Source: a virus
Taxonomy: Duplodnaviria; Heunggongvirae; Uroviricota; Caudoviricetes
Strand: one strand, 5' to 3'
IMG/VR virus record: IMGVR_UViG_2526164594_000022
Length of the DNA stretch: 23,911 nt
Shown here piece after piece: positions 9,203-21,247 of this stretch (within the stretch, counting starts at the first letter, position 1; every line of letters starts with the position of its first letter). Under the pieces are notes generated by a model. The model saw nothing but the letters and a program-made list of their open reading frames with translations, was not told the DNA's origin and made no database searches. The position numbers and the translations under genes are program-made.

Positions 9203-9687
9203 TTGTTCTTGCCCCCTTATTTCCAGACAGGGGGGGTATCTTAAGTTAACGTTACCCGCTGACGTCGATATTCTCGCGGAGAGCGATAACCCAACGCACT
9301 GTGCGGATGGTTTTCATTGTAATGTTCGATCGCCACTGCAAGATTATGCAATGCCGTTCTTACATTCGGTTTCGGCATGAACGCGATGTAGTCTTCCTTC
9401 ATCGTTTTCACGAACCTTTCTGCAATTCCATTACTCTGAGGACTGCTGATTGCCGTTGTGCAGGGCTCCAGATTCAACTCTCTGGCGAACTGCCGTGTTT
9501 CATGCGCTCTATACGCTGAACCGTTATCTGTCAGCCACTGGATGGACTGTTCCGGTACTTTATCGCCAAAGCGTTTTTCTATCGCTCCTAACATGACATC
9601 CTGCACTGTCGCTTTATCGTAACCTCCCGTGCTTGCGGCCCAGTCTATGGCTTCACGATCGCAACAGTCCAGGGCGATTCATCTGGG
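9203..9687 (-). mobile_element. IS2-family (IS3 superfamily) remnant: 3' end only, with terminal repeat
   Basis: Minus-strand translation ..[72 protein letters not shown]...[14 protein letters not shown] resembles IS2 InsD (OrfB) C-terminus. Homology stops at a stop codon near 9687. Reverse complement of ~9203-9235 resembles the IS2 right end (TGTCTGGAAATA..GGGGCAA). Confidence 0.65.
9241..9606 (-). pseudogene. Transposase OrfB C-terminal fragment (rve integrase core) of the IS2-family remnant
   Basis: 121-aa ORF with DDE-region motifs (..TDNGSAYRA.., ..[11 protein letters not shown].., [14 protein letters not shown]); N-terminal two-thirds missing. Confidence 0.7.
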
Positions 9688-10161: not shown

Positions 10162-11343
10162 ATGCCTTTAAACGATATGCAGATTCGCCGCGCTAAGCCT
10201 GAAGCTAAAGCCTATACATTTGGAGATGGGCTAGGGTTGTCATTACTTATAGAACCTAATGGAAGCAAGAGTTGGCGGTTCCGCTATCGCTATGCCGGCA
10301 AACCCAAAATGATCTCGCTTGGTGTTTACCCAACGATCACCCTTGCCGATGCTCGTTCCCGTCGTGATGAAGCTCGAAAACTTGTGGCAGAAGGAAAGAA
10401 CCCTAGTGAGGTTCGAAAAGAGCAAAAGCTAGCTATGCAAACAGAGTCAGAGAACGCCTTCGAAAAGATAGCCAGAGAGTGGCATCAACTTAAATCTGCT
10501 AAATGGTCGGCGGGATATGCATCAGACATCATGGAAGCGTTTAAGAACGACATTTTTCCTTATGTCGGAACAAGGCCTGTGGGAGAGATTAAACCGCTAG
10601 AGCTGCTGAACGTTCTGCGTAAAATTGAGAAACGTGGTGCGTTGGAGAAAATGCGCAAAGTGCGGCAGCGTTGCTCCGAAGTGTTTCGCTACGCAATTGC
10701 AACGGGTAGGGCGGAGTACAATCCTGCGGCTGATCTCTCCAGCGCTCTCGAAGTACACCAATCCAATCATTTCCCATTCCTAAAAGCTGATGAGATACCT
10801 GATTTTCTACGTGCCTTAGAGGGTTACTCCGGGAGTAAGCTTGTCCAGATAGCCACGAAATTACTGATGATTACGGGTGTGAGAACCATCGAATTACGCG
10901 CGGCATTATGGCAAGAATTTGATCTGGATAACGCTATTTGGGAAATTCCTGCTGAAAGGATGAAAATGCGTAGGCCACATCTTGTGCCCTTATCATCTCA
11001 AGCGGTAGATTTACTCAATGAACTCAAGATCATGACAGGGAACTATCGTTATGTTTTTCCAGGGCGGAACGATCCGAATAGGCCAATGAGCGAAGCGAGT
11101 ATAAATCAAGCCATTAAGCGTATTGGGTATGGAGGAAAAGTCACTGGACATGGTTTTCGTCATACCCTTTCTACAATCCTGCATGAGCAAGGTTTTGAGA
11201 GTGCTTGGATTGAAATCCAGTTGGCTCATGTAGATAAAAATTCTATTAGGGGGACTTATAACCATGCTCAATATTTTAGTGGAAGGAAGTCTATGATGGA
11301 CTGGTACAGTAATTTGATATTTGAAAGACTAAAAAGGAGTTAA
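10162..11343 (+). CDS. int: P4-type tyrosine integrase
   Basis: N-terminus MPLNDMQIRRAKPEAKAYTFGDGLGLSLLIEPNGSKSWRFRYR (P4-integrase-family arm-binding region); C-terminal catalytic residues in ..GHGFRHTLSTILHEQG..LAHVDKNSIRGTYNHAQY. ORF track starts at 10111 with an unlikely Cys-rich leader. Confidence 0.85.
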   Translation: MPLNDMQIRRAKPEAKAYTFGDGLGLSLLIEPNGSKSWRFRYRYAGKPKMISLGVYPTITLADARSRRDEARKLVAEGKNPSEVRKEQKLAMQTESENAFEKIAREWHQLKSAKWSAGYASDIMEAFKNDIFPYVGTRPVGEIKPLELLNVLRKIEKRGALEKMRKVRQRCSEVFRYAIATGRAEYNPAADLSSALEVHQSNHFPFLKADEIPDFLRALEGYSGSKLVQIATKLLMITGVRTIELRAALWQEFDLDNAIWEIPAERMKMRRPHLVPLSSQAVDLLNELKIMTGNYRYVFPGRNDPNRPMSEASINQAIKRIGYGGKVTGHGFRHTLSTILHEQGFESAWIEIQLAHVDKNSIRGTYNHAQYFSGRKSMMDWYSNLIFERLKRS

Positions 11344-11346
11344 TTT

Positions 11347-11763
11347 GTGTCTCAACCACTTTCGGAAATATTGACATGGGATGATGAACAATGGGAGGTA
11401 TTTGTCCATGATTGGCTTATTGTCTGTAAATCAGATGATTACCCGTGGAGCGAACGTTTGGGAGGAGCTGGAGATAAAGGTAGAGACGTTGTTGGATATA
11501 AATCGGATCCTAACGTAGAAGGTTATTCTTGGGATAATTATCAATGCAAACTGTACAAAAAAAGTTTAGGGTTCTCTGATGTTGTAGTTGAGTTTGGAAA
11601 ACTTATCTATTTTACTCTGAATGGTGATTATCCCATCCCTCAGAAGTACTTTTTTGTGGCACCCTATGATTTATCTACTACATTTTCTAATTTATTGAAA
11701 AATAAAAACGAGCTTAAAAAAGCAGTCCTTGATTCATGGGATTCAGCAATTTCAAAAAAATAA
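11347..11763 (+). CDS. Cargo protein, N-terminal part: Mrr-like PD-(D/E)xK restriction-endonuclease-fold domain (LmuA-like effector candidate); ORF ends in an A7 run
   Basis: GTG start preceded by SD AAGGAG. Motifs WEVFVHDWL ... GGAGDKGRDVVGY ... YQCKLY fit the E...D...(Q/E)xK catalytic arrangement of Mrr-type nucleases. Stop immediately follows an A7 homopolymer at 11754-11760. Confidence 0.55.
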   Translation: MSQPLSEILTWDDEQWEVFVHDWLIVCKSDDYPWSERLGGAGDKGRDVVGYKSDPNVEGYSWDNYQCKLYKKSLGFSDVVVEFGKLIYFTLNGDYPIPQKYFFVAPYDLSTTFSNLLKNKNELKKAVLDSWDSAISKK

Positions 11764-12353
11764 CTAAAAAGATTGATATTCCATTAGATGATGAAATAAA
11801 AAAATATATTGAGGATTTTGATTTTAGTATTTTTTACTCTCTACCCTTATCATTGATTTTAAATGATATTGCAAATACACACCTTTATTTTAAGTACTTT
11901 AACGAGCTGTATGTCGTGAGAATCCCTCCAAATGAAATTCCAACATACAATTCAAAAAAAGAGTCTGTATATGTTAATGCACTGCTTCAAGCCTATTCAG
12001 AGCATGGAAATAAAACTTATAGTTCTTTCTTAGAGCTTGATGATCCATACAGACGACACTTTAATAATAGTAGAAATGATTTTTATTTTGCATCTTCGCT
12101 TGAGGTTTTTGTCCGCGAAGTATTTAAAGATGATGTATTCAAAGCATTGAAATGTTACATTTCATCTTCAATTGAACCCGTCTTTTATGAAGACCATAAT
12201 TATGCATTTATTAGGTGTAATGCAGTCTTGAAGCAGGCTGTTCTGACACCAATTGCACATTCAGTACTATCAAAAATATGTGAAGCAAATGATAAAAAAG
12301 GAATATGCCATCATTTGGTTAATGATGGTGAAGTAATTTGGACGGTGAGATAA
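11736..12353 (+). CDS. Cargo protein, probable continuation of the preceding ORF in the +1 frame (C-terminal domain of the nuclease protein)
   Basis: Open frame passes through the same A7 run; one extra A would join ..DSWDSAISKK to ITKKIDIPLDDEIKKY.., giving a ~335-aa protein. Stop overlaps the next ATG (TAATG). Confidence 0.5.
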   Translation: MGFSNFKKITKKIDIPLDDEIKKYIEDFDFSIFYSLPLSLILNDIANTHLYFKYFNELYVVRIPPNEIPTYNSKKESVYVNALLQAYSEHGNKTYSSFLELDDPYRRHFNNSRNDFYFASSLEVFVREVFKDDVFKALKCYISSSIEPVFYEDHNYAFIRCNAVLKQAVLTPIAHSVLSKICEANDKKGICHHLVNDGEVIWTVR

Positions 12354-12811
12354 TGGTTAGAATTTATAATTCAAGTTTAGAAGTGGCATGTCGAATGGCG
12401 AAAGTGCTCGTCGCTATTTATCCTTCTTCATTAAGCCTTGAACGGCTTATTTGTTTTGATTTTATTTTAGTAAATCTTAAGGATTTTTTACCTGAAGAGA
12501 TTAGTCTTCATCCTCCAATACCCCGTAGAGATGCTCAGTTAGCCCTAAAACGAGAGATTGTTTTAGAATCATTGGCTTTGTTGCAAGGCTATGAACTAGC
12601 CTCAAAAATTTATACACATCGTGGTTTTGTATATAAAGCTTCTGAAAAAACATATGCATTTACAAATTCTCTACATAATGAATATGTTGCGCAGATGGAG
12701 CATAATATAAATTTGGTGGTTAAGTTATATAGTGATATTCCTGATGAGCAGTTGCAATCAATTATAAAAAATAAAATTGGCAAATATGATATGGAATTTA
12801 ATTATGAATGA
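12353..12811 (+). CDS. Small cargo protein (~152 aa), candidate middle component (LmuC-like by position)
   Basis: ATG at 12353 overlaps the upstream stop (TAATG), suggesting translational coupling; 3' end overlaps the next ATG (ATGAATGA). No motif recognised. Confidence 0.5.
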   Translation: MVRIYNSSLEVACRMAKVLVAIYPSSLSLERLICFDFILVNLKDFLPEEISLHPPIPRRDAQLALKREIVLESLALLQGYELASKIYTHRGFVYKASEKTYAFTNSLHNEYVAQMEHNINLVVKLYSDIPDEQLQSIIKNKIGKYDMEFNYE

Positions 12812-13436
12812 CAATTTTTTTACGTTCAGAAAAATAAAGGTAACCGGATTCAATAAATTAGATGCTATAATTGAATTTGGTTCTAAATTGACTATTTTAT
12901 ATGGTGGTTCTGACTCTGGAAAAACATACATATATTATTTGATTCGATATTTATTAGGGAGTGAAAAACTAAAAAATAAAGATATCGATCATGCTCAAGG
13001 TTATGATTTAGCCTATCTGGAATTTAATTTTCAAGGTAGGGTAATGACAATTGAGAGGTCTCTTCAGGATAGCGCCCATTACAGATTATATGATTCGAGC
13101 ATTGAAAATGTTAGTGAAGCTAATCTGTTGATGGTTTTTTCCAAAAGTGCTTCGTCTAAAAAGAGTTTTTCATCATACTTTTATGGTAGGTTGAATTTCA
13201 AAGAGGCTAAAGTAAGAACAAACTTAAGTAATACTCTTCATAAATTTAATCTTAATAATGTTTTTGAATTTTTTTGTATTGATGAATTAAGAGTGTTAAC
13301 TGAGAAGTCGTTAATTCTTTCTGATATTCCTAGCGAGGAGACAAAAAGAAAGTCTGAATTTAAATTCCTTTTAACTCAGAGAGATGATACTAACTCCTTA
13401 GCAGAAAAACCAAATAAAAAAGCAAGATATTTTTAA
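12804..13436 (+). CDS. SMC/Rad50/RecF-like ABC ATPase, N-terminal head half (Walker A); LmuB-like candidate, fragment 1
   Basis: MNDNFFTFRKIKVTGFNKLDAIIEFGSKLTILYGGSDSGKTYIYYLIRYLLG: the typical SMC_N-type start (..i.i.nF...) and P-loop GGSDSGKT. Ends at an in-frame TAA that begins an A7 run. Confidence 0.6.
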   Translation: MNDNFFTFRKIKVTGFNKLDAIIEFGSKLTILYGGSDSGKTYIYYLIRYLLGSEKLKNKDIDHAQGYDLAYLEFNFQGRVMTIERSLQDSAHYRLYDSSIENVSEANLLMVFSKSASSKKSFSSYFYGRLNFKEAKVRTNLSNTLHKFNLNNVFEFFCIDELRVLTEKSLILSDIPSEETKRKSEFKFLLTQRDDTNSLAEKPNKKARYF

Positions 13437-13466
13437 AAAAATCAAATTGCAAATATTTATGAGGAA

Positions 13467-13856
13467 TTGAAAGCGCAATTAATTTATCCTGAATATGATC
13501 AAGTCATTGTTTCAAGAGAACTTGAGAAAGTAGAGCAAGATATTGAATCATCGAAAGATATATTGAAAGGTATTGTTGATGCACTTGATGATAAGAAGCA
13601 ATTATTAAAAGAGTTAAGTGATGAATTATATTCAATCAGTGACAGGGAAAAATACTTATCATTACTCATTGAAAGATTTAGTCTTCTTAAAGACCAATAC
13701 TTTATAGATCTACAAAGAATAGATGTTGTATCACAGGCGAATTTCTATTTAAATAATTTTGCAGATATTTATTGTGAGTTCTGTAATACACCGCAAAAAA
13801 AGAAAATGAAATATCATATGATGATTGTTTTTTGTCGTGTAATGCAGAAAAATTGA
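13467..13856 (+). CDS. Coiled-coil segment of the SMC-like ATPase (fragment 2), ending in CxxC
   Basis: Same frame as the preceding ORF, separated by a single TAA. Heptad-rich sequence ..ELEKVEQDIESSKDILKGIVDALDDKKQLLKELSDELYSI.. ending ..CEFCNTPQKK at an A7 run (13795-13801). Confidence 0.45.
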   Translation: MKAQLIYPEYDQVIVSRELEKVEQDIESSKDILKGIVDALDDKKQLLKELSDELYSISDREKYLSLLIERFSLLKDQYFIDLQRIDVVSQANFYLNNFADIYCEFCNTPQKKKMKYHMMIVFCRVMQKN

Positions 13857-14056
13857 AAATCAAAAGCCAGCTGAAAGGATTAATTGAATCAATCGGATCT
13901 AATGTTCGCGAACATGAATTAATTATGTTAAGAAAAAATGATGTTAATGAAATTTATCAATCAGAAAAAAGTGATTTTAAGACGTTAGAAGATAAAAATA
14001 TAAAACAATACATTCATCTCTTGAATCACTTTATGAATATAAAGACAATCTTTTAA
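13832..14056 (+). CDS. SMC-like ATPase fragment 3 (second half of a putative zinc hook, CFLSC, plus coiled coil)
   Basis: With one extra A in the A7 run the reading becomes CEFCNTPQKKENEISYDDCFLSCNAEKLKIKSQLK.., i.e. CxxC-x16-CxxxC, reminiscent of Rad50/SMC hook motifs. Confidence 0.4.
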   Translation: MSCNAEKLKIKSQLKGLIESIGSNVREHELIMLRKNDVNEIYQSEKSDFKTLEDKNIKQYIHLLNHFMNIKTIF

Positions 14057-14622
14057 TGGATCACACAAAACATAGCATTCTATCTTCATTACAAGATAAA
14101 GAAGATGATGTTGACGAACTTAAATACTCCGCCGAGGACTTTGACTCCTTAACAGTAGCTGATTTGTATGATATAGAAATAGCGATGCAAGACTTTTTGA
14201 ATGATATAAATTTTGAAAATTCTAAAGATAACAAAGTGCGATTTGACGAAGATACATATGACTTTAATATCAATGGGAAACGCCGAGGAATGTTTGGTAA
14301 AGGTACCCGTGCAGTAATGCATGCTATATTTACCATTTGCTTTGCGGAATTTTTATCAAGAAAAGGGAATCCATTCATTGGATTTGTTGTGCTTGATAGT
14401 CCATTAGTGACGCACTTTGATAAAGATAGAGGGGGTTCTCTATCGGATGTTAATAGCGTCAGTCTCAGTGATTCATTTTATCACGCATTAATCAAAAGGG
14501 ACTATAATTTCCAGATTGTAATTCTTGAGAATAAAGGTCCGACGTTCCAAATAAAAATTAATGATGCAAATAAAATCCATAACTTAAATAAGAATGGAAG
14601 CTCTGGTTTTTATCCTGTTTAA
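14056..14622 (+). CDS. SMC-like ABC ATPase, C-terminal head half (signature-like and Walker B-like motifs), fragment 4
   Basis: ..GKRRGMFGKGTRAVMHAIFTICFAEFLSRKGNPFIGFVVLDSPLVTHFDKD..QIVILENKG: signature-like GKGTRA, hydrophobic stretch plus acidic residue (VVLDSP) in Walker B position. ATG overlaps the upstream stop (TAATG). Confidence 0.55.
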   Translation: MDHTKHSILSSLQDKEDDVDELKYSAEDFDSLTVADLYDIEIAMQDFLNDINFENSKDNKVRFDEDTYDFNINGKRRGMFGKGTRAVMHAIFTICFAEFLSRKGNPFIGFVVLDSPLVTHFDKDRGGSLSDVNSVSLSDSFYHALIKRDYNFQIVILENKGPTFQIKINDANKIHNLNKNGSSGFYPV

Positions 14623-14984
14623 TACATTAAAAATATAACTGCTAATTGGGGTGCTCGAAATTATATTTCGTTTCGAGCGCTCAGTTCATTTCTAAATAAT
14701 TTGCAAAATTATTTTGGGTACTTTCGCCTCTACACTTCCTTCGGGTGGTTCCACAATAATGGATCTCACCGGCGTTTGATATTTTATAATCTAACCCCTT
14801 AGCGCGCGCAGCCCCCCACGCCTGCTCGCTTCGCTTAACAGACTGGTTTTCATGCATTCCGCAAATCGTCTCAGAAGCCACCACACAAGGGCTTTCGCGT
14901 CAAAAATGGTGCATGAGAATCATGCGTTTTCATGCGCTATAGACATGCACTCATGCGCTCTCAGGCCAGCCAGGGAAAAGGCGT

Positions 14985-15031: not shown

Positions 15032-15304
15032 TCAGACAGGAATTTGCTGACGGCTTGACAGCTTTGACGCGGAGCCATAGCGATTGAGAGTTTGCTGTTG
15101 TTTTTCCGGCATTTGTGCTTTCTCTGATTCCTGTTCATTGCGCCGGGGCTTCATGATTATCGTATCCACACTTTCCAGTGCGGTAAATGTGTAGGAACAT
15201 TCAAGATTCTGGCACTGATACCATGAGCGTTTAACCGATGGTGCTTCATAGGCGGAGGTTCTGGCGTGTGCCGTCGTACCGCATTCGGGACATTTAAGTG
15301 CCAT
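15032..15304 (-). CDS. Ogr/Delta-family zinc-finger late-gene activator
   Basis: MALKCPECGTTAHARTSAYEAPSVKRSWYQCQNLECSYTFTALESV..: C-x2-C...C-x4-C pattern and AHARTS motif as in P2 Ogr / P4 Delta. Confidence 0.85.
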   Translation of the reverse strand: MALKCPECGTTAHARTSAYEAPSVKRSWYQCQNLECSYTFTALESVDTIIMKPRRNEQESEKAQMPEKQQQTLNRYGSASKLSSRQQIPV

Positions 15305-15309
15305 TAATA

Positions 15310-15861
15310 TTACTCCTGCATGCCGTTAATGTAATCCAGACGTTGCTGAAAGCGCAGTTGTTGTGCAGGGGTGTAAGAGCTCTGGCAATCACGAACCATC
15401 ATGGGGTCAGGCATCACACCGGATTCATCCAGAATCATACGATAATCCCCGGCAATTTCAGGCGGTGTTATTGCCAGCTGGCGAACCAGAGCATTGCGTA
15501 ATATACGGGACGCAACGTCAACCCCTCCGCGCCCCTTCAGGAACGGAGCCAGTGCAGATGTCAGGGCTGCTCCATTCGCCTGCATAAAATTGCTGAGAGC
15601 GTCTTCTGTGCAGGCCTCCATCAGTTGATGCTGCGAGTAAATGCATTCGCGCGCAGCACAGTTAATTTGCCATTTCAGCACATCCAGATGTTCCCGCTGT
15701 AATTCGAGCTGTCGAGCATAATCTGCTGGTTTTTCCATGGCAGTGAGGAGTGATTCTATCTGTTGTTCAACGGCTTTTCGGCTCTCACTATGTCCAGCCC
15801 ACAGAATACGGGCATTTCTAAAACTGATAAGCGCTTGGTCTGGAGTGACTCGGGCCATCAT
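15310..15861 (-). CDS. psu: Psu-like protein (polarity suppression / capsid decoration)
   Basis: 183-aa ORF between the sid-like and delta-like genes; partial resemblance to P4 Psu (..LKWQINCAARECI.., ..GAALTSALAPFL.., ..YTPAQQ..) by recall. Confidence 0.65.
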   Translation of the reverse strand: MMARVTPDQALISFRNARILWAGHSESRKAVEQQIESLLTAMEKPADYARQLELQREHLDVLKWQINCAARECIYSQHQLMEACTEDALSNFMQANGAALTSALAPFLKGRGGVDVASRILRNALVRQLAITPPEIAGDYRMILDESGVMPDPMMVRDCQSSYTPAQQLRFQQRLDYINGMQE

Positions 15862-15930
15862 ACTGCTTTCTCCTTCTCAGCACGTTCCTGACGAACCTTC
15901 ATTTTATGCATAGCTGCTGGAGAGAGTTTA

Positions 15931-16611
15931 TTACTGAAATCCAGACGGGCCGCATAATCCGGGGGCAACTCCCGCCAGTTTAAACACGGGGTCCTGTTCG
16001 GGCATCGCATCGTTAGTCAGAGCCGGTCTGGTGATATGTTTATGAATAAAATCTTTCAGCAGTGTGTCCGGGTCATTAACTGAATGCACCACACCGACAA
16101 CTGCGCTGGCTTCCCTGCCCATTGTTGATTTGAGCAGGCTTAGTGTCTGGATTAGTGCTTTTCCATGCGACTGCATAAAATCTTCCCAGATTTGTTTTGC
16201 GCGAATACCCACAAGGGTGTCGTGCGCGTGGATATACTTTCCGGCTAATTCCGCAGCCTCCTGCGGCAAAAGTGCATTTTCGCTTTCCTGAGCCGCCAGC
16301 AGCTCATCAAAATCCTCAAGCGTTTCTCGTCCCAGCGCAATTTCCGTGCGCAGTTTTTTCATTTCCTTTGAGACTACGCCCTGACTTTCACGAAATAGCG
16401 TGCGCCACTCCTCATTCAGGGCGTTCGTCGTGGCTTCCATTTCAGCGCGGCGCTGGCGGATTGTCGCAATATTATCCGCTGCCGCTTTTTGCTGACGACG
16501 TGCTTCAAGCCATGCAGATTTGGTGGCATTCACTTTCTCAAGCGCCTGTTGCGTCGAAACAGGGATAGAAATTTCAACGATCGGGTTATTGTTCTGTTCT
16601 GGGATTGTCAT
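15931..16611 (-). CDS. sid: Sid-like external scaffold (capsid size determination) protein
   Basis: 226-aa ORF first in the minus-strand late cluster; shares ..EEWRTLFRESQGVVSKEMKK.. with P4 Sid (..DDWRTAFRAAGGVLSDELKQ..) by recall. Confidence 0.6.
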   Translation of the reverse strand: MTIPEQNNNPIVEISIPVSTQQALEKVNATKSAWLEARRQQKAAADNIATIRQRRAEMEATTNALNEEWRTLFRESQGVVSKEMKKLRTEIALGRETLEDFDELLAAQESENALLPQEAAELAGKYIHAHDTLVGIRAKQIWEDFMQSHGKALIQTLSLLKSTMGREASAVVGVVHSVNDPDTLLKDFIHKHITRPALTNDAMPEQDPVFKLAGVAPGLCGPSGFQ

Positions 16612-18577: not shown

Positions 18578-18900
18578 TGATATGCTGTGAATCTCTTCTG
18601 GCACTTCGTGCCGCTCTGTATCGCCGTGCCGTTGCCTGTGCCTGGCTGGCTCTAAGCAATCATCAGGAACGTTATTCCGGCCTGACGCTCGCTGAACTTG
18701 AAGATGCCATAGCCCGCGAGCTGGAAGGGTTCTATCTGCGCCAGCATGGGCAGCAAAGAGGGCTGGAAATTGCCTGCGCGTTGCTTTCGGATCTGATGGA
18801 GTCGGGGCCGCTTAAAGCCTGTCCGGTTCTCTCACTGCTCGGAATGACGGTCATGGATGAACTTTGTTCCCGTCACCTCAACAAACCAGCGCTGCACTAA
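18577..18900 (+). CDS. Small hypothetical early protein (107 aa)
   Basis: ORF immediately upstream of the primase, in operon arrangement; no motif recognised. Confidence 0.5.
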
Positions 18901-18913
18901 GGAGGGCCGCACA

Positions 18914-21247
18914 ATGTCAGGAATGAAAGTTAGCCAGGCTGAGAAAGCAGCTCGGGGTCACTGGTCAAGAATTTTACCTGCGCTGGGCGTAAATGTACTG
19001 AAAAATCGGCACCAGCCCTGCCCGGTCTGTGCCGGGAAAGACCGCTTTCGATTTGATGACCAGGAAGGGCGGGGAACGTGGTTCTGTAACCAGTGCGGGG
19101 CAGGTGATGGCCTGGCGCTTGTAAGTAAAGTACTGGATGTAGGCATTAGTGAAGCGGCAGACAGAATAAACGGCATTATCGGAAACCTGCTGCCAGTATC
19201 TCAGGGAATGCTTGAATCTGGTTCTCCTGAAAAAGAGGACGGGAGAAAAGCTGCAGCAGTGCTGGCTGCCCGTTTGTTTGATAAGTCCCGCCAGACCACT
19301 GGCAATGCCTATCTGACGAGTAAAGGGTTTCCTGCACTGCCTTGCCGGGAATTAACCGCTATGCATAAAGTCGGTGGTGTGGCATTTCGCGCGGGAGATC
19401 TTGTCGTTCCATTGTATGCAGATGGAGAGCTGGTAAATCTGCAGTTAATCAACGCTAATGGGGGCAAATGCTTCCTTAAAGGCGGTCAGGTTAAGAATGC
19501 CTTTTACCTGGTTGAAGGTACTGCCAAAGCAGCCAAACGGCTCTGGATAGCGGAAGGATATGCCACCGCACTTACTATCAACTATCTGACTGGCGATGCT
19601 GTCATGGTGGCCTTTTCGTCCGTCAATTTCCTTTCCCTGGCGAGCATTGCCTGCAGTGAGTACCCAACGCACCAGATAATTATTGCTGCTGACCGCGATC
19701 TCAACGGTGCGGGGCAAACAAGGGGCGCAGCTGTTACCGGGGCCTGCAATTGCACAATGGCGCTCCCGCCTGTGTTTGGTGACTGGAACGATGCATTCAC
19801 GCAAAACGGCGAAGAAGCCACCCGGCATGCAATTCATGAAGTAATAAAACCAGCTGTTGCCAGCCCCTTCGACACAATGAGCGAAGCTGAATTTACCGCG
19901 CTGAGCGTCAGCGAAAAAGCGCAGAGGGTAGTGGATCACTATAAAAATTCACTGGCAGTAGACCCGAACGGGCAGCTCCTTTCACGCTATGAGGCGGGGG
20001 CCTGGAAAGTTATCTATTACGCCGATTTTGCCCGTGATGTCGCTGCGCTGTTTCAGCGCCTCGACGCACCTTTTTCATCCGCGAAAATTGCGTCTCTCGT
20101 GGAAACCCTCAAACTGATCGTTCCGCAACAGCAGAATCCGGCGCGGCAACTTATCGGATTTCGCAACGGTGTGCTCGATACCCGGACAGGATTGTTCAGC
20201 CCGCACGATAAGAAGCACTGGTTACGTACGCTGTGCGAGGTGGATTACACGCAGCCCGTTGACGGTGAGTCACTGGAAACCCATGCCCCGGCATTCTGGC
20301 GCTGGCTGGATCGTGCCGCAGGTTTTAATCCTGAAAAACGGGACATTATTCTGGCTGCATTGTTTATGGTGCTGGCTAACCGTTATGACTGGCAGCTGTT
20401 TCTGGAGGTCACTGGCCCTGGCGGAAGTGGAAAGAGTATTCTTGCTGAAATAGCAACCATGCTGGCGGGTGAAGATAACGCGACCTCGGCAACCATTGAA
20501 ATGCTTGAGTCGCCAAGAGAACGAGCTGCGTTAATAGGTTTTTCACTGATTCGACTTCCCGACCAGGAAAAGTGGAGCGGTGACGGGGCCGGACTAAAAG
20601 CCATCACTGGCGGCGATGCGGTATCCGTTGATCCCAAATATCAGAACGCCTATTCAACCCACATCCCGGCGGTCATCCTGGCTGTGAACAATAATCCGAT
20701 GCGCTTCACTGATCGTAGTGGTGGAGTTTCACGCCGAAGGGTGATCCTGCATTTCCCCGACCAGATAGCCCCGGAGGAACGCGATACCCAGCTCAAAGAG
20801 AAAATTGCCAGTGAGCTAGCGGTGATTGTTCGCCAGCTTATGCAGCGTTTCAGCGACCCAATGAGTGCCAGGACATTGCTTCAGTCACAGCAGAACTCCG
20901 ATGAAGCGCTCACCATCAAACGTGATGCTGATTCAGCTTTTGATTTTTGCGGCTACCTTGAGGTCCTACCTGACACCACGGGCATGTTTATGGGGAACGC
21001 TAATATTGTTCCACGTCAGCCTCGAACTTACCTCTACCATGCCTATCTGGTCTACATGGAGGCTAACGGCTATAAAAATACGCTCAGTCTGACCATGTTT
21101 GGCAAGGGGCTACCGTTAATGCTCAAGGAATATGGGCTGCAGTATGAGAAACGACGGACCAATCAAGGAATGCAGACTAATCTGGCCCTAAGAGAGGAAA
21201 GCAATGCTGACTGGTTGCCAAAATGCGATGAGTTTGCAGCGAAATAA
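18914..21247 (+). CDS. P4 alpha-type primase-helicase (zinc-binding primase, TOPRIM, D5-type NTPase)
   Basis: Strong SD AAGGAGGG before the ATG (MSGMKVSQ..). Zn motif CPVCAGKDRFRFDD..GTWFCNQCG, Walker A GPGGSGKS, 777 codons like P4 alpha. ORF track starts upstream at 18857. Confidence 0.9.
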   Translation: MSGMKVSQAEKAARGHWSRILPALGVNVLKNRHQPCPVCAGKDRFRFDDQEGRGTWFCNQCGAGDGLALVSKVLDVGISEAADRINGIIGNLLPVSQGMLESGSPEKEDGRKAAAVLAARLFDKSRQTTGNAYLTSKGFPALPCRELTAMHKVGGVAFRAGDLVVPLYADGELVNLQLINANGGKCFLKGGQVKNAFYLVEGTAKAAKRLWIAEGYATALTINYLTGDAVMVAFSSVNFLSLASIACSEYPTHQIIIAADRDLNGAGQTRGAAVTGACNCTMALPPVFGDWNDAFTQNGEEATRHAIHEVIKPAVASPFDTMSEAEFTALSVSEKAQRVVDHYKNSLAVDPNGQLLSRYEAGAWKVIYYADFARDVAALFQRLDAPFSSAKIASLVETLKLIVPQQQNPARQLIGFRNGVLDTRTGLFSPHDKKHWLRTLCEVDYTQPVDGESLETHAPAFWRWLDRAAGFNPEKRDIILAALFMVLANRYDWQLFLEVTGPGGSGKSILAEIATMLAGEDNATSATIEMLESPRERAALIGFSLIRLPDQEKWSGDGAGLKAITGGDAVSVDPKYQNAYSTHIPAVILAVNNNPMRFTDRSGGVSRRRVILHFPDQIAPEERDTQLKEKIASELAVIVRQLMQRFSDPMSARTLLQSQQNSDEALTIKRDADSAFDFCGYLEVLPDTTGMFMGNANIVPRQPRTYLYHAYLVYMEANGYKNTLSLTMFGKGLPLMLKEYGLQYEKRRTNQGMQTNLALREESNADWLPKCDEFAAK

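What the first reader, a model, noticed from the sequence alone, without database searches (positions are those of the whole stretch)
11754..11760. Frame break in the nuclease-domain gene at an A7 homopolymer
Seen in sequence: ORF 11347-11763 stops right after AAAAAAA and ORF 11736-12353 is open through the same run in the +1 frame. An A8 run would give a continuous ~335-aa protein (..DSWDSAISKK ITKKIDIPLDDE..). Inference: a 1-bp deletion in a homopolymer. It may be a sequencing or assembly undercall, a genuine inactivating mutation, or slippage-based phase variation of a potentially toxic effector.
Basis: seen in the sequence. Interest (0 to 1): 0.55.

Follow-up and report, generated by a model that had tools for sequence, protein, structure and literature searches.

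The report
Frameshifted nuclease gene in dead Lamassu operon
The frame break is a real, inherited one-base deletion that split the nuclease gene (lmuA) of a Lamassu anti-phage system carried by a P4-like prophage of E. coli O157:H7; the partner sensor gene is broken in three more places, so this is an ordinary decayed gene cluster, not a switch.

Summary
An A7 run at 11754-11760 is followed by TAA, and the next ORF is open through it in the -1 (=+2) frame. One extra A gives a 335-aa protein.

That protein is colinear with intact 334-337-aa homologues (best E 3.5e-156, 100% coverage). It matches PADLOC LmuA at 8e-89. It has an N-terminal PD-(D/E)xK/Mrr-like nuclease domain and a CTD6 domain.

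The locus is lmuA-lmuC-lmuB, a Lamassu (ABC-3C) system. It sits between int and delta/psu of the P4-like prophage Sp2 of E. coli O157:H7.

- **Not an assembly error, no sign of phase variation.** An 81-nt probe across the tract is 100% identical in all 309 matching complete-genome records (308 O157:H7 and O55:H7 genomes).
- **An intact allele exists elsewhere.** The exact fused protein is on 434 public contigs, and Salmonella partial proteins read through the junction.
- **lmuB is also dead in the window.** It carries a TTA>TAA nonsense codon and two more 1-bp poly(A) deletions. Repairing all three gives a 606-aa ORF that matches an intact Klebsiella aerogenes LmuB at every junction.

Verdict: a fixed inactivating frameshift in a decaying defence operon. 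Low interest.

The parts
10162..11343 (+). P4-type tyrosine integrase (intS, ECs_0289), left boundary of the satellite's defence hotspot
   Evidence: Pfam Arm-DNA-bind_3, Phage_int_M and Phage_integrase. RefSeq annotations. The start at 10162 follows the 393-aa RefSeq CDS.
11347..11763 (+). lmuA 5' fragment (138 aa, ECs_0290): the PD-(D/E)xK / Mrr-like nuclease core, ending at a premature TAA
   Evidence: Invariant D43, D47, Q66, C67, K68 and E82 in homologues. Five of 17 homologues hit Pfam Mrr_cat. The alpha-beta-beta-beta-alpha-beta core spans residues 13-105 of the model. Fold hits to LmuA, MspJI and Cap4.
11754..11760 (+). A7 tract, the site of the 1-bp deletion (ancestral A8)
   Evidence: The tract is A7 in all 309 matching E. 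coli records and in every clean locus fetched. The A8-type fused protein is on 434 contigs, and Salmonella partials read through the junction.
11760..12353 (+). lmuA 3' fragment (annotated as the 205-aa ORF 11736-12353, ECs_0291): rest of the N-terminal region plus the CTD6 domain
   Evidence: Pfam PF20282 CTD6 at residues 206-332 of the fused protein, E 2.1e-29. PADLOC LmuA profile matched over residues 3-333.
12353..12811 (+). lmuC (ABC-3C middle component 2, ECs_0292), apparently intact at 152 aa
   Evidence: Pfam MC2 5.5e-30. PADLOC LmuC 2.9e-36. Same length as the Xenorhabdus orthologue.
12804..14622 (+). lmuB pseudogene (SMC-like ABC ATPase, ECs_0293), read in three frames with an internal stop
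   Evidence: tblastn of the intact 604-aa Xenorhabdus LmuB maps colinearly to frames 3, 2 and 1. Sakai RefSeq marks it as a pseudogene. Repairing three lesions gives 606 aa, matching intact K. aerogenes P0177.
13434..13436 (+). lmuB lesion 1: in-frame TAA, from TTA (Leu) by a T>A change at 13435 (T6A6 became T5A7)
   Evidence: L005 and L012 have T here. K. aerogenes and Salmonella proteins read ...ARYFLKNQ....
13796..13802 (+). lmuB lesion 2: A7, where most relatives have A8 (1-bp deletion specific to the window's sub-lineage)
   Evidence: EDL933 has A8. The window-type A7 is in 66 of 309 records; 243 differ, and A8 was confirmed in the loci read, including O55:H7 strains among the 82-nt matches.
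13994..13998 (+). lmuB lesion 3: A5, ancestral A6 (1-bp deletion), separating the 188-aa C-terminal ORF 14056-14622
   Evidence: The frame 2 to frame 1 switch maps to 14008-14050. Adding one A gives ...TLEDKKYKTIHSSLESLYEY..., matching K. aerogenes ...TLEDKKYKTIHSFLESLYEY.... A5 in all E. coli loci fetched.
14649..14682 (+). Terminator-like hairpin after lmuB, the likely end of the operon
   Evidence: 13-bp stem with 6 GC pairs. Consensus scan only.
15032..16611 (-). P4 core genes delta (ogr/Delta), psu and a sid-like gene, the right boundary of the hotspot
   Evidence: RefSeq annotation. Pfam Ogr_Delta and Psu on the called genes.

Best explanation
The two ORFs are the halves of one gene, lmuA. 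It encodes the nuclease effector of a type II Lamassu (ABC-3C) anti-phage/anti-plasmid system with gene order lmuA-lmuC-lmuB. The system lies in the defence hotspot, between int and delta/psu, of the P4-like satellite prophage Sp2 (my name for it in EDL933: CP-933I) of E. coli O157:H7. An A8 tract lost one base, most likely by replication slippage. This places TAA after codon 138 and uncouples the PD-(D/E)xK nuclease core from the rest of the protein, including the C-terminal CTD6 domain. In solved Lamassu systems the C-terminal domain docks LmuA on LmuB2-LmuC and drives the tetramerisation that activates the nuclease. The deletion is a fixed, inherited, inactivating mutation shared by the O55:H7/O157:H7 lineage. 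It is one of at least four lesions in the operon; lmuB has a nonsense codon and two further poly(A) deletions. The system is therefore a decaying pseudogene array. Shown here: the tract, the homology, the fixation, the additional lesions, and the existence of intact alleles elsewhere. Inferred: the slippage mechanism, the loss of function, and the idea that once lmuB was lost an unrestrained LmuA became dispensable or harmful.
For: The sequence and ORFs are. Homologues are full-length, single-ORF proteins of 334-337 aa with no gap at the junction. Intact operons are 335+152+604 aa in Xenorhabdus and 334+159+609 aa in a Serratia P4-like element beside proBA. PADLOC scores are LmuA 8e-89, LmuC 2.9e-36 and LmuB 1.2e-118. 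Pfam gives CTD6 and MC2 and Mrr_cat in 5 of 17 homologues. The AlphaFold model has pLDDT 94, and its best PDB fold matches are solved LmuA chains, followed by MspJI and Cap4. The 81-nt probe across the tract is 100% identical in 309 of 309 records, 308 genomes, including O55:H7 strains. The exact fused protein is on 434 contigs, and Salmonella partials P0129 and P0134 read ...SAISKKITKKIDI.... The lmuB lesions are mapped and validated against the intact 606-aa K. aerogenes LmuB. Sakai RefSeq already marks lmuB as a pseudogene. Literature: the LmuA C-terminal oligomerisation domain is sequestered by LmuB2-LmuC, and freed LmuA tetramerises to become active; the isolated N-terminal domain needs forced dimerisation to be active; mutants that loosen LmuA binding are hyper-toxic (10.1101/2025.03.14.643221; 10.1101/2025.04.02.646746).
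Against: No read-level data were available, so low-frequency A8 subpopulations within cultures cannot be excluded. I could not retrieve the 434 contigs that carry the exact fused protein, so their assignment to Salmonella rests on six Salmonella-labelled partial proteins and on contig sizes. Some of them could be O157 revertants or assembly errors. A_AAA_AAA followed by a stop codon is a known type of slippery context, so a little full-length LmuA could still be made. Loss of function is inferred and was not measured. The published mechanism comes from Cap4/CTD7/MC3 Lamassu systems, whereas this one is Mrr-like/CTD6/MC2.
Confidence: 0.87

Rival explanations
1. Sequencing or assembly undercall: the real genome has A8 and an intact lmuA.
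For: Homopolymers are error-prone. One IMG/VR contig (L017) shows A8, but it carries about 30 homopolymer indels in 4.6 kb. For the E14K allele, a fused version occurs on 1 contig against 262 contigs with the 138-aa form. That ratio looks like a background error rate.
Against: All 309 matching records, from 308 independently sequenced complete genomes, are 100% identical over the 81-nt probe spanning the tract. The same A7 is in every clean locus fetched from NCBI and IMG/VR.
Confidence: 0.01
2. Phase variation: the A tract is a contingency locus that switches a toxic effector on and off by slipped-strand mispairing.
For: The break is at a homopolymer inside the coding sequence of a potentially toxic nuclease. 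An A8 allele with otherwise identical protein sequence exists. Another A8/A7 tract in lmuB is polymorphic among O157 strains, 243 against 66 records.
Against: There is no length variation at this tract in 308 genomes. The tract is not conserved: intact relatives read AGT AAA ATA or CAC AAA ATC at this site. The gene is 33% GC and has eight runs of 6 or more bases per kb, so A runs are incidental. Switching lmuA back on could not restore the system, because lmuB carries a substitution-type nonsense codon and two other frameshifts. A7/A8 tracts are short for efficient switching (general knowledge).
Confidence: 0.03
3. Recoding: -1 ribosomal frameshifting on A_AAA_AAA before the UAA, or transcriptional slippage, yields full-length LmuA from the A7 allele as a programmed low-level expression mechanism.
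For: The downstream ORF is in the -1 frame, and a -1 slip on A_AAA_AAA gives exactly ...SKKITKK..., the ancestral protein (derived). A stop codon directly 3' of a slippery run favours shifting in E. coli (general knowledge of 'shifty stops').
Against: There is no stimulatory structure downstream: the 80 nt after the site fold at -5.9 kcal/mol, z = +1.0, worse than shuffled sequence. No Shine-Dalgarno-like element lies at dnaX-like spacing upstream (read). No homologue is organised this way; all are single ORFs. lmuB is dead, so a full-length LmuA would have no functional partner.
Confidence: 0.03
4. The two ORFs are natively separate or secondarily functional: a stand-alone 138-aa nuclease plus a CTD6 protein retained under selection.
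For: Both ORFs have stayed open and nearly invariant across the O55:H7/O157:H7 lineage. RefSeq PGAP annotates them as ordinary CDSs, not pseudogenes.
Against: Among the top full-length hits (334-337 aa) every homologue is a single ORF, and only fragments occur otherwise. The break removes the near-invariant FDFSIF strand (F158, F160, I162) and following helices from the N-terminal region. ATG 11736 has no recognisable ribosome-binding site (read). The lineage is too young and clonal for invariance to demonstrate selection. In solved systems the isolated N-terminal LmuA domain is inactive unless artificially dimerised.
Confidence: 0.04

Closest known systems
Lamassu (ABC-3C) type II systems, LmuA-LmuC-LmuB, such as Salmonella enterica LmuACB (PDB 9hqx) and Vibrio cholerae DdmABC (9nxx, 9uxh)
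   Same: Three-gene order: effector, middle component, SMC-like ABC ATPase. LmuA has two domains, an N-terminal PD-(D/E)xK-type nuclease and a C-terminal docking/oligomerisation domain. PADLOC LmuA, LmuC and LmuB profiles are matched strongly. The best PDB fold hits are solved LmuA chains.
   Different: The subtype differs: Mrr-like N-terminal domain, CTD6 and MC2, instead of Cap4, CTD7 and MC3. A sequence profile finds no PDB relative, and the fold match has low TM (0.26-0.30). The copy in the window is non-functional, with lmuA split and lmuB carrying three lesions.
Defence hotspot of P4-like satellites (Rousset et al. 2022, PMC9122126; NAR 2026, PMC13586616)
   Same: The operon lies between the P4 integrase and delta/psu/sid. 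AlpA, Ash and the alpha primase lie further on. A homologous intact system occupies the same position in a Serratia P4-like element beside proBA.
   Different: PMC13586616 reports that recognisable defence pseudogenes are rare in P4 elements, at under 1% of P4 pseudogenes. Here the whole defence cargo has decayed, yet it is retained across a lineage.
Homopolymer frameshift pseudogenes in clonal pathogens
   Same: A 1-bp deletion in a poly(A) run of an AT-rich, horizontally acquired gene, fixed in a clonal lineage and accompanied by further lesions in the same operon.
   Different: Nothing substantive. This is the category it belongs to.
Phase-variable contingency loci (simple-sequence tracts in restriction-modification or surface genes)
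   Same: A homopolymer tract inside the ORF of a nuclease-type gene, with an alternative tract length known that restores the frame.
   Different: No tract-length polymorphism in 308 genomes. The tract is not conserved in relatives. The tract is short. The partner gene is irreversibly inactivated.

Membership tests
Lamassu / ABC-3C defence system (type II) | LmuB: SMC/Rad50-like ABC ATPase of about 600 aa | tested here: met
   The window sequence aligns colinearly with the intact 604-aa Xenorhabdus LmuB, but only as a pseudogene. The Xenorhabdus orthologue scores 1.2e-118 on the PADLOC LmuB profile. Pfam AAA_23 and SMC_N match the N-terminal fragment.
Lamassu / ABC-3C defence system (type II) | LmuA: variable N-terminal effector domain fused to a conserved ABC-3C C-terminal domain | tested here: met
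In the window itself the gene is split at codon 138.
Lamassu / ABC-3C defence system (type II) | LmuC / middle component encoded between lmuA and lmuB | tested here: met
   Pfam MC2 5.5e-30. PADLOC LmuC 2.9e-36. Gene order confirmed.
Lamassu / ABC-3C defence system (type II) | Protects against phage or plasmids through abortive DNA degradation | not testable with these tools
   Needs experiments. The four inactivating lesions predict no activity for the window's copy.
PD-(D/E)xK (Mrr-like) nuclease domain | Alpha-beta-beta-beta-alpha-beta core with a D...(D/E/Q)xK catalytic motif | tested here: met
   Invariant D43, D47 and Q66-C67-K68. Predicted core H13-27, E34-37, E48-51, E62-67, H76-91, E100-105. 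Mrr_cat hit in 5 of 17 homologues, best 6.3e-6; the E. coli sequence itself is below threshold. MspJI, Cap4, EndoMS and FokI appear among the fold hits.
Phase-variable contingency locus | Tract length differs among closely related isolates | tested here: not met
   309 of 309 records are 100% identical over the 81-nt probe spanning the tract.
Phase-variable contingency locus | Switching ON restores a functional unit | tested here: not met
   lmuB carries a TAA nonsense codon and two frameshifts in the window.
Programmed -1 ribosomal frameshift site | Slippery heptamer X_XXY_YYZ in the zero frame, with the downstream ORF in the -1 frame | tested here: met
   A_AAA_AAA at 11754-11760. ORF 11736-12353 is in the -1 frame.
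Programmed -1 ribosomal frameshift site | Stimulatory element (downstream hairpin or pseudoknot, or upstream SD-like sequence) and conservation of the arrangement in homologues | tested here: not met
   The downstream 80 nt fold no better than shuffles, z = +1.0. Among the top full-length hits every homologue is a single ORF, and relatives lack the A run.
P4-like satellite prophage | Core genes int, delta, psu, sid, alpA, ash/epsilon region and alpha primase in P4 order | tested here: met
   RefSeq and Pfam annotations. Sakai carries the feature 'prophage Sp2, P4-like phage'. The 796-aa primase ORF is at 18857-21247.

The most novel reading that the evidence does not exclude
The A7-UAA junction might not be simply dead. 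-1 ribosomal or transcriptional slippage on A_AAA_AAA could make a trickle of full-length LmuA, or the 138-aa Mrr-like fragment could be kept as a free-standing nuclease. In that reading the O55:H7/O157:H7 lineage retains a low-dose, sensor-independent effector after loss of LmuB. Alternatively, rare A8 revertants form a subpopulation with an active nuclease.
Probability: 0.04. Interest if true: 0.5.

Novelty: new member of a known kind. Interest (0 to 1): 0.14.

Why it matters
Mostly housekeeping.

- **Annotation.** ECs_0290 and ECs_0291, and their PGAP equivalents, should be annotated as one frameshifted lmuA pseudogene. The operon should be recognised as a defunct Lamassu system, so that defence-system censuses of O157:H7 neither miss its origin nor count it as active.
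- **A counter-example.** A recent report says defence pseudogenes are rare in P4 hotspots because systems are swapped before they decay (PMC13586616). Here a defence cargo has accumulated at least four lesions in situ and has still been retained through the O55:H7 to O157:H7 radiation.
- **Mutation pattern and markers.** All three frameshifts are 1-bp losses in poly(A) runs of a 33%-GC operon, and the nonsense codon arose at a T/A run boundary. This illustrates how AT-rich acquired genes decay. The lmuB A8/A7 tract and the sid G4/G5 tract may serve as lineage markers.

Tried and rejected
- **Looking up the neighbouring MC2 protein** returned only A7 contexts, because only the longest-contig blocks (E. 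coli complete genomes) were read.
- **IMG/VR scan.** It gave five clean A7 loci and one A8 locus, L017, from a Salmonella SopE context. L017 has about 30 homopolymer indels in 4.6 kb and cannot be trusted.
- **Genome-contig scan.** It found only one distant relative, at 32% identity.
- **tblastn against phage records.** Only three distant hits.
- **Exact look-ups of four reconstructed 606-aa LmuB variants** were all absent from the collection. The cluster listing did reveal an intact K. aerogenes LmuB.
- **PDB sequence-profile search.** No hit. The fold search was needed instead.
- **Apparent A7 in Salmonella.** I considered that the Salmonella-labelled 138-aa protein P0151 showed A7 in Salmonella, and rejected it. 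It is marked partial, and its longest contig (37,978 bp) is 56 bp shorter than that of the 157-aa read-through partial P0134 (38,034 bp), about the 57 nt that 19 codons would occupy. It is therefore probably a contig-end truncation.
The 67%-identical, gap-free Xenorhabdus orthologue was modelled instead.
- **Literature search for ECs0290 to ECs0293.** Nothing found.

Full report
**Observation.** ORF 11347-11763 (138 aa) ends ...TCA AAA AAA TAA. The A run is 11754-11760, seven bases. ORF 11736-12353 (205 aa) is open through it. (11736-11347) mod 3 = 2, so the downstream ORF is in the -1 (=+2) frame. One added A restores a 335-aa ORF reading ...DSWDSAISKKITKKIDIPLDDE....

**Where the window comes from.** The window matches E. 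coli O157:H7 and O55:H7 chromosomes at 99% identity or more. In strain Sakai the two ORFs are ECs_0290 and ECs_0291, inside the feature 'prophage Sp2, P4-like phage'. The neighbours are a P4-type integrase upstream (10162-11343). Downstream on the minus strand are ogr/delta, psu and a sid-like gene. AlpA, Ash and the alpha primase follow. The operon therefore sits in the variable defence hotspot of a P4-like satellite, as described by Rousset et al. 2022 (PMC9122126) and PMC13586616.

**What the gene is.**
- The fused 335-aa sequence finds 157 homologues. The best are single ORFs of 334-337 aa covering 99-100% of the query: Xenorhabdus bovienii at 67% identity (E 3.5e-156), then Aeromonas, Serratia and Yersinia.
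- The alignment runs through the junction without a gap.
- Pfam finds the ABC-3C C-terminal domain CTD6 at residues 206-332.
- PADLOC profiles name the three genes: LmuA (8e-89, residues 3-333), LmuC (2.9e-36) and, for the intact Xenorhabdus orthologue, LmuB (1.2e-118). The operon is a type II Lamassu (ABC-3C) system.
- The N-terminal region has invariant D43, D47, Q66-C67-K68 and E82. Five of 17 homologues reach Pfam Mrr_cat.
- An AlphaFold model of the Xenorhabdus orthologue has pLDDT 94.2. That orthologue has the same length as the fused protein and aligns without gaps. The model shows an alpha-beta-beta-beta-alpha-beta core at residues 13-105.
- The best PDB fold matches are solved LmuA chains (9nxx, 9ny1, 9hqx), then MspJI, Cap4, EndoMS and FokI.
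- 'Nuclease-domain gene' is therefore correct. A PDB sequence-profile search found nothing.

**Intact operons elsewhere.**
- Xenorhabdus has 335 + 152 + 604 aa, inside a prophage.
- Serratia marcescens has 334 + 159 + 609 aa, directly after a P4-type integrase beside proBA. That is the same kind of site as in the window.
- The native state is one lmuA gene and one lmuB gene.

**Assembly error?** No. An 81-nt probe centred on the tract is 100% identical in all 309 matching records, from 308 complete genomes that include O55:H7 strains DEC5B and others. One base more or less would give 98.8%, as seen with the control probe. All clean loci fetched from NCBI and IMG/VR also have A7.

**Is A8 the ancestral state?** Probably yes.
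- The exact fused 335-aa protein is present in the 15-billion-protein collection on 434 contigs, the longest 1.88 Mb.
- Salmonella-labelled partial proteins P0129 (serovar Brandenburg) and P0134 read ...SAISKKITKKIDI... through the junction.
- A 138-aa Salmonella entry (P0151) is marked partial. Its longest contig is 56 bp shorter than that of P0134, about the 57 nt that 19 codons would occupy, so it is probably a contig-end truncation and not an A7 stop.
- For the E. coli E14K allele, the fused form is on 1 short contig against 262 contigs for the 138-aa form. That looks like error background.
- I could not retrieve the 434 contigs, so assigning them to Salmonella is an inference.
- The only A8 DNA I obtained is L017, from a Salmonella SopE context. 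It has about 30 homopolymer indels in 4.6 kb and is not reliable.

**Is the tract a designed switch?** The evidence is against it.
- Intact relatives read AGT AAA ATA or CAC AAA ATC at this position, so they have no long run there.
- The E. coli gene is 33% GC and has eight runs of six or more bases in 1 kb. All the others are in frame.
- Tract length does not vary in 308 genomes.

**The rest of the operon is broken too.** tblastn of the intact Xenorhabdus LmuB maps onto the window colinearly but in three frames. Three lesions explain this.

| Lesion | Position | Change | Distribution |
|---|---|---|---|
| 1 | 13434-13436 | TTA to TAA, a T>A change at 13435 (T6A6 became T5A7) | L005 and L012 retain TTA |
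| 2 | 13796-13802 | A8 to A7 | Window state in 66 of 309 records. The other 243 differ; A8 was confirmed in EDL933 and the other loci read, and O55:H7 strains are among the 82-nt matches |
| 3 | 13994-13998 | A6 to A5, creating the separate 188-aa ORF 14056-14622 | Present in all E. coli loci fetched. Complete 188-aa ORFs are also called in Salmonella serovars such as Infantis |

- Repairing the three sites in silico gives a continuous 606-aa ORF.
- An intact 606-aa LmuB from Klebsiella aerogenes (P0177) lies in the same 90% cluster. It agrees with the reconstruction at all three junctions...ARYFLKNQ......TPQKKENEISYDD... and ...TLEDKKYKTIHSFLESLYEY....
- Sakai RefSeq already flags ECs_0293 as a pseudogene.
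- One complete genome has in addition an IS inserted in lmuB (L008).
- Counting the lmuA frameshift, the window's operon carries four inactivating lesions. Three are 1-bp losses in poly(A) runs.

**Mechanistic reading.**
- In solved Lamassu complexes the LmuA C-terminal oligomerisation domain is sequestered by two LmuB protomers and LmuC.
- On activation, freed LmuA forms a tetramer that brings two nuclease domains together.
- The isolated N-terminal domain is active only when dimerised artificially.
- Mutations that loosen LmuA binding are hyper-toxic.
- Salmonella LmuA alone is toxic when expressed from a plasmid (10.1101/2025.03.14.643221; 10.1101/2025.04.02.646746).

The stop after codon 138 falls at the end of helix 120-138 of the model. 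It cuts off the near-invariant FDFSIF strand and all of CTD6. The expected result is a null allele. It is plausible, though only inferred, that an lmuA-null mutation was neutral or advantageous once lmuB was damaged. The order of events is not settled. The A5 lesion in lmuB appears in both E. coli and Salmonella copies, while read-through lmuA appears in Salmonella. I could not show that the two states occur in the same Salmonella genomes.

**Rivals.**
- A sequencing error is excluded.
- Phase variation fails on polymorphism, on conservation of the tract and on the state of the partner gene.
- A -1 ribosomal frameshift on A_AAA_AAA before UAA would produce exactly the ancestral protein, and such 'shifty stop' contexts do leak in E. 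coli. Against a programmed site: the downstream 80 nt fold worse than shuffled sequence (z = +1.0); there is no upstream SD-like element at suitable spacing; and no homologue shares the arrangement.
- Separate functional genes are unlikely. Every full-length homologue found is a single ORF, and ATG 11736 has no recognisable ribosome-binding site.

**Novelty and interest.** Lamassu, P4 hotspots and homopolymer frameshift pseudogenes are all known. No paper in the library mentions these locus tags. RefSeq does not flag lmuA as a pseudogene, so the specific call is new but ordinary. The one mildly notable point concerns PMC13586616, which reports that recognisable defence pseudogenes are rare in P4 elements and argues for swap-before-decay. 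Here a decayed defence cargo has persisted through the O55:H7/O157:H7 lineage. Interest is low.

Noticed in passing
window 13796-13802: A second poly(A) tract, in lmuB, is polymorphic among O157 genomes. The window-type A7 is in 66 of 309 records. The other 243 differ from the window by one base; A8 was confirmed in EDL933 and the other loci read, and O55:H7 strains are among these matches. Carriers of A7 include RM6067W, TR01 and Argentine cattle strains, so it may mark a sub-lineage. Clonality was not formally tested.
   Followed up: partly
window 13434-13436: There is an in-frame TAA in lmuB where L005, L012, K. aerogenes and Salmonella have TTA (Leu). It is a T>A substitution exactly at the T-run/A-run boundary (T6A6 became T5A7). 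L005 lacks Sp1 and has the P4-like element directly beside proBA, so it represents a different E. coli background that carries the lmuA A7 and lmuB A5 lesions but not this one.
   Followed up: yes
window 15957-15961 (minus-strand ORF 15931-16611): The window has G5 where EDL933 and most genomes have G4. This shortens the sid-like ('septation initiation protein', Psu-domain) ORF from 250 to 226 aa. Only 20 of 312 records share the window's allele.
   Followed up: partly
window 4316-6185: A 1.83-kb segment is flanked by 20-nt inverted repeats (4316-4335 and 6166-6185) next to the pinE invertase gene (about 6247-6801). It lies in the opposite orientation to EDL933. This is a classic Pin/Gin-type invertible tail-fibre segment in the prophage remnant Sp1, and a genuine phase-variable element in the window.
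   Followed up: partly
window about 11680-11820 (draft assemblies): Many NCBI draft assemblies of E. coli and Salmonella break contigs within or near this AT-rich stretch. Partial LmuA proteins end at 111, 120, 121, 138, 145 and 157 aa, or start right after the A run. Partial proteins can therefore mimic the frameshift product.
   Followed up: partly
L008:6934-8147 (GCA_000155125.1): One O157 genome has an IS3-family element inserted in lmuB. This is a further independent lesion in the same operon.
   Followed up: no
window 9241-9606 (minus strand): A truncated IS3-family transposase (ISEc48 remnant) lies between the AraC-family regulator gene (8456-9199) and the P4-like integrase, at the Sp1/Sp2 junction. 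ARAGORN finds no tRNA gene anywhere in the window.
   Followed up: no
L017 (IMGVR_UViG_2923272612_000005): A Salmonella contig has a SopE gene and a Hin/Pin-like invertase upstream of the same P4-like element. It shows A8 in lmuA and A6 at the lmuB 13994 site. It also carries about 30 homopolymer indels across the operon, so it is probably a noisy assembly.
   Followed up: partly
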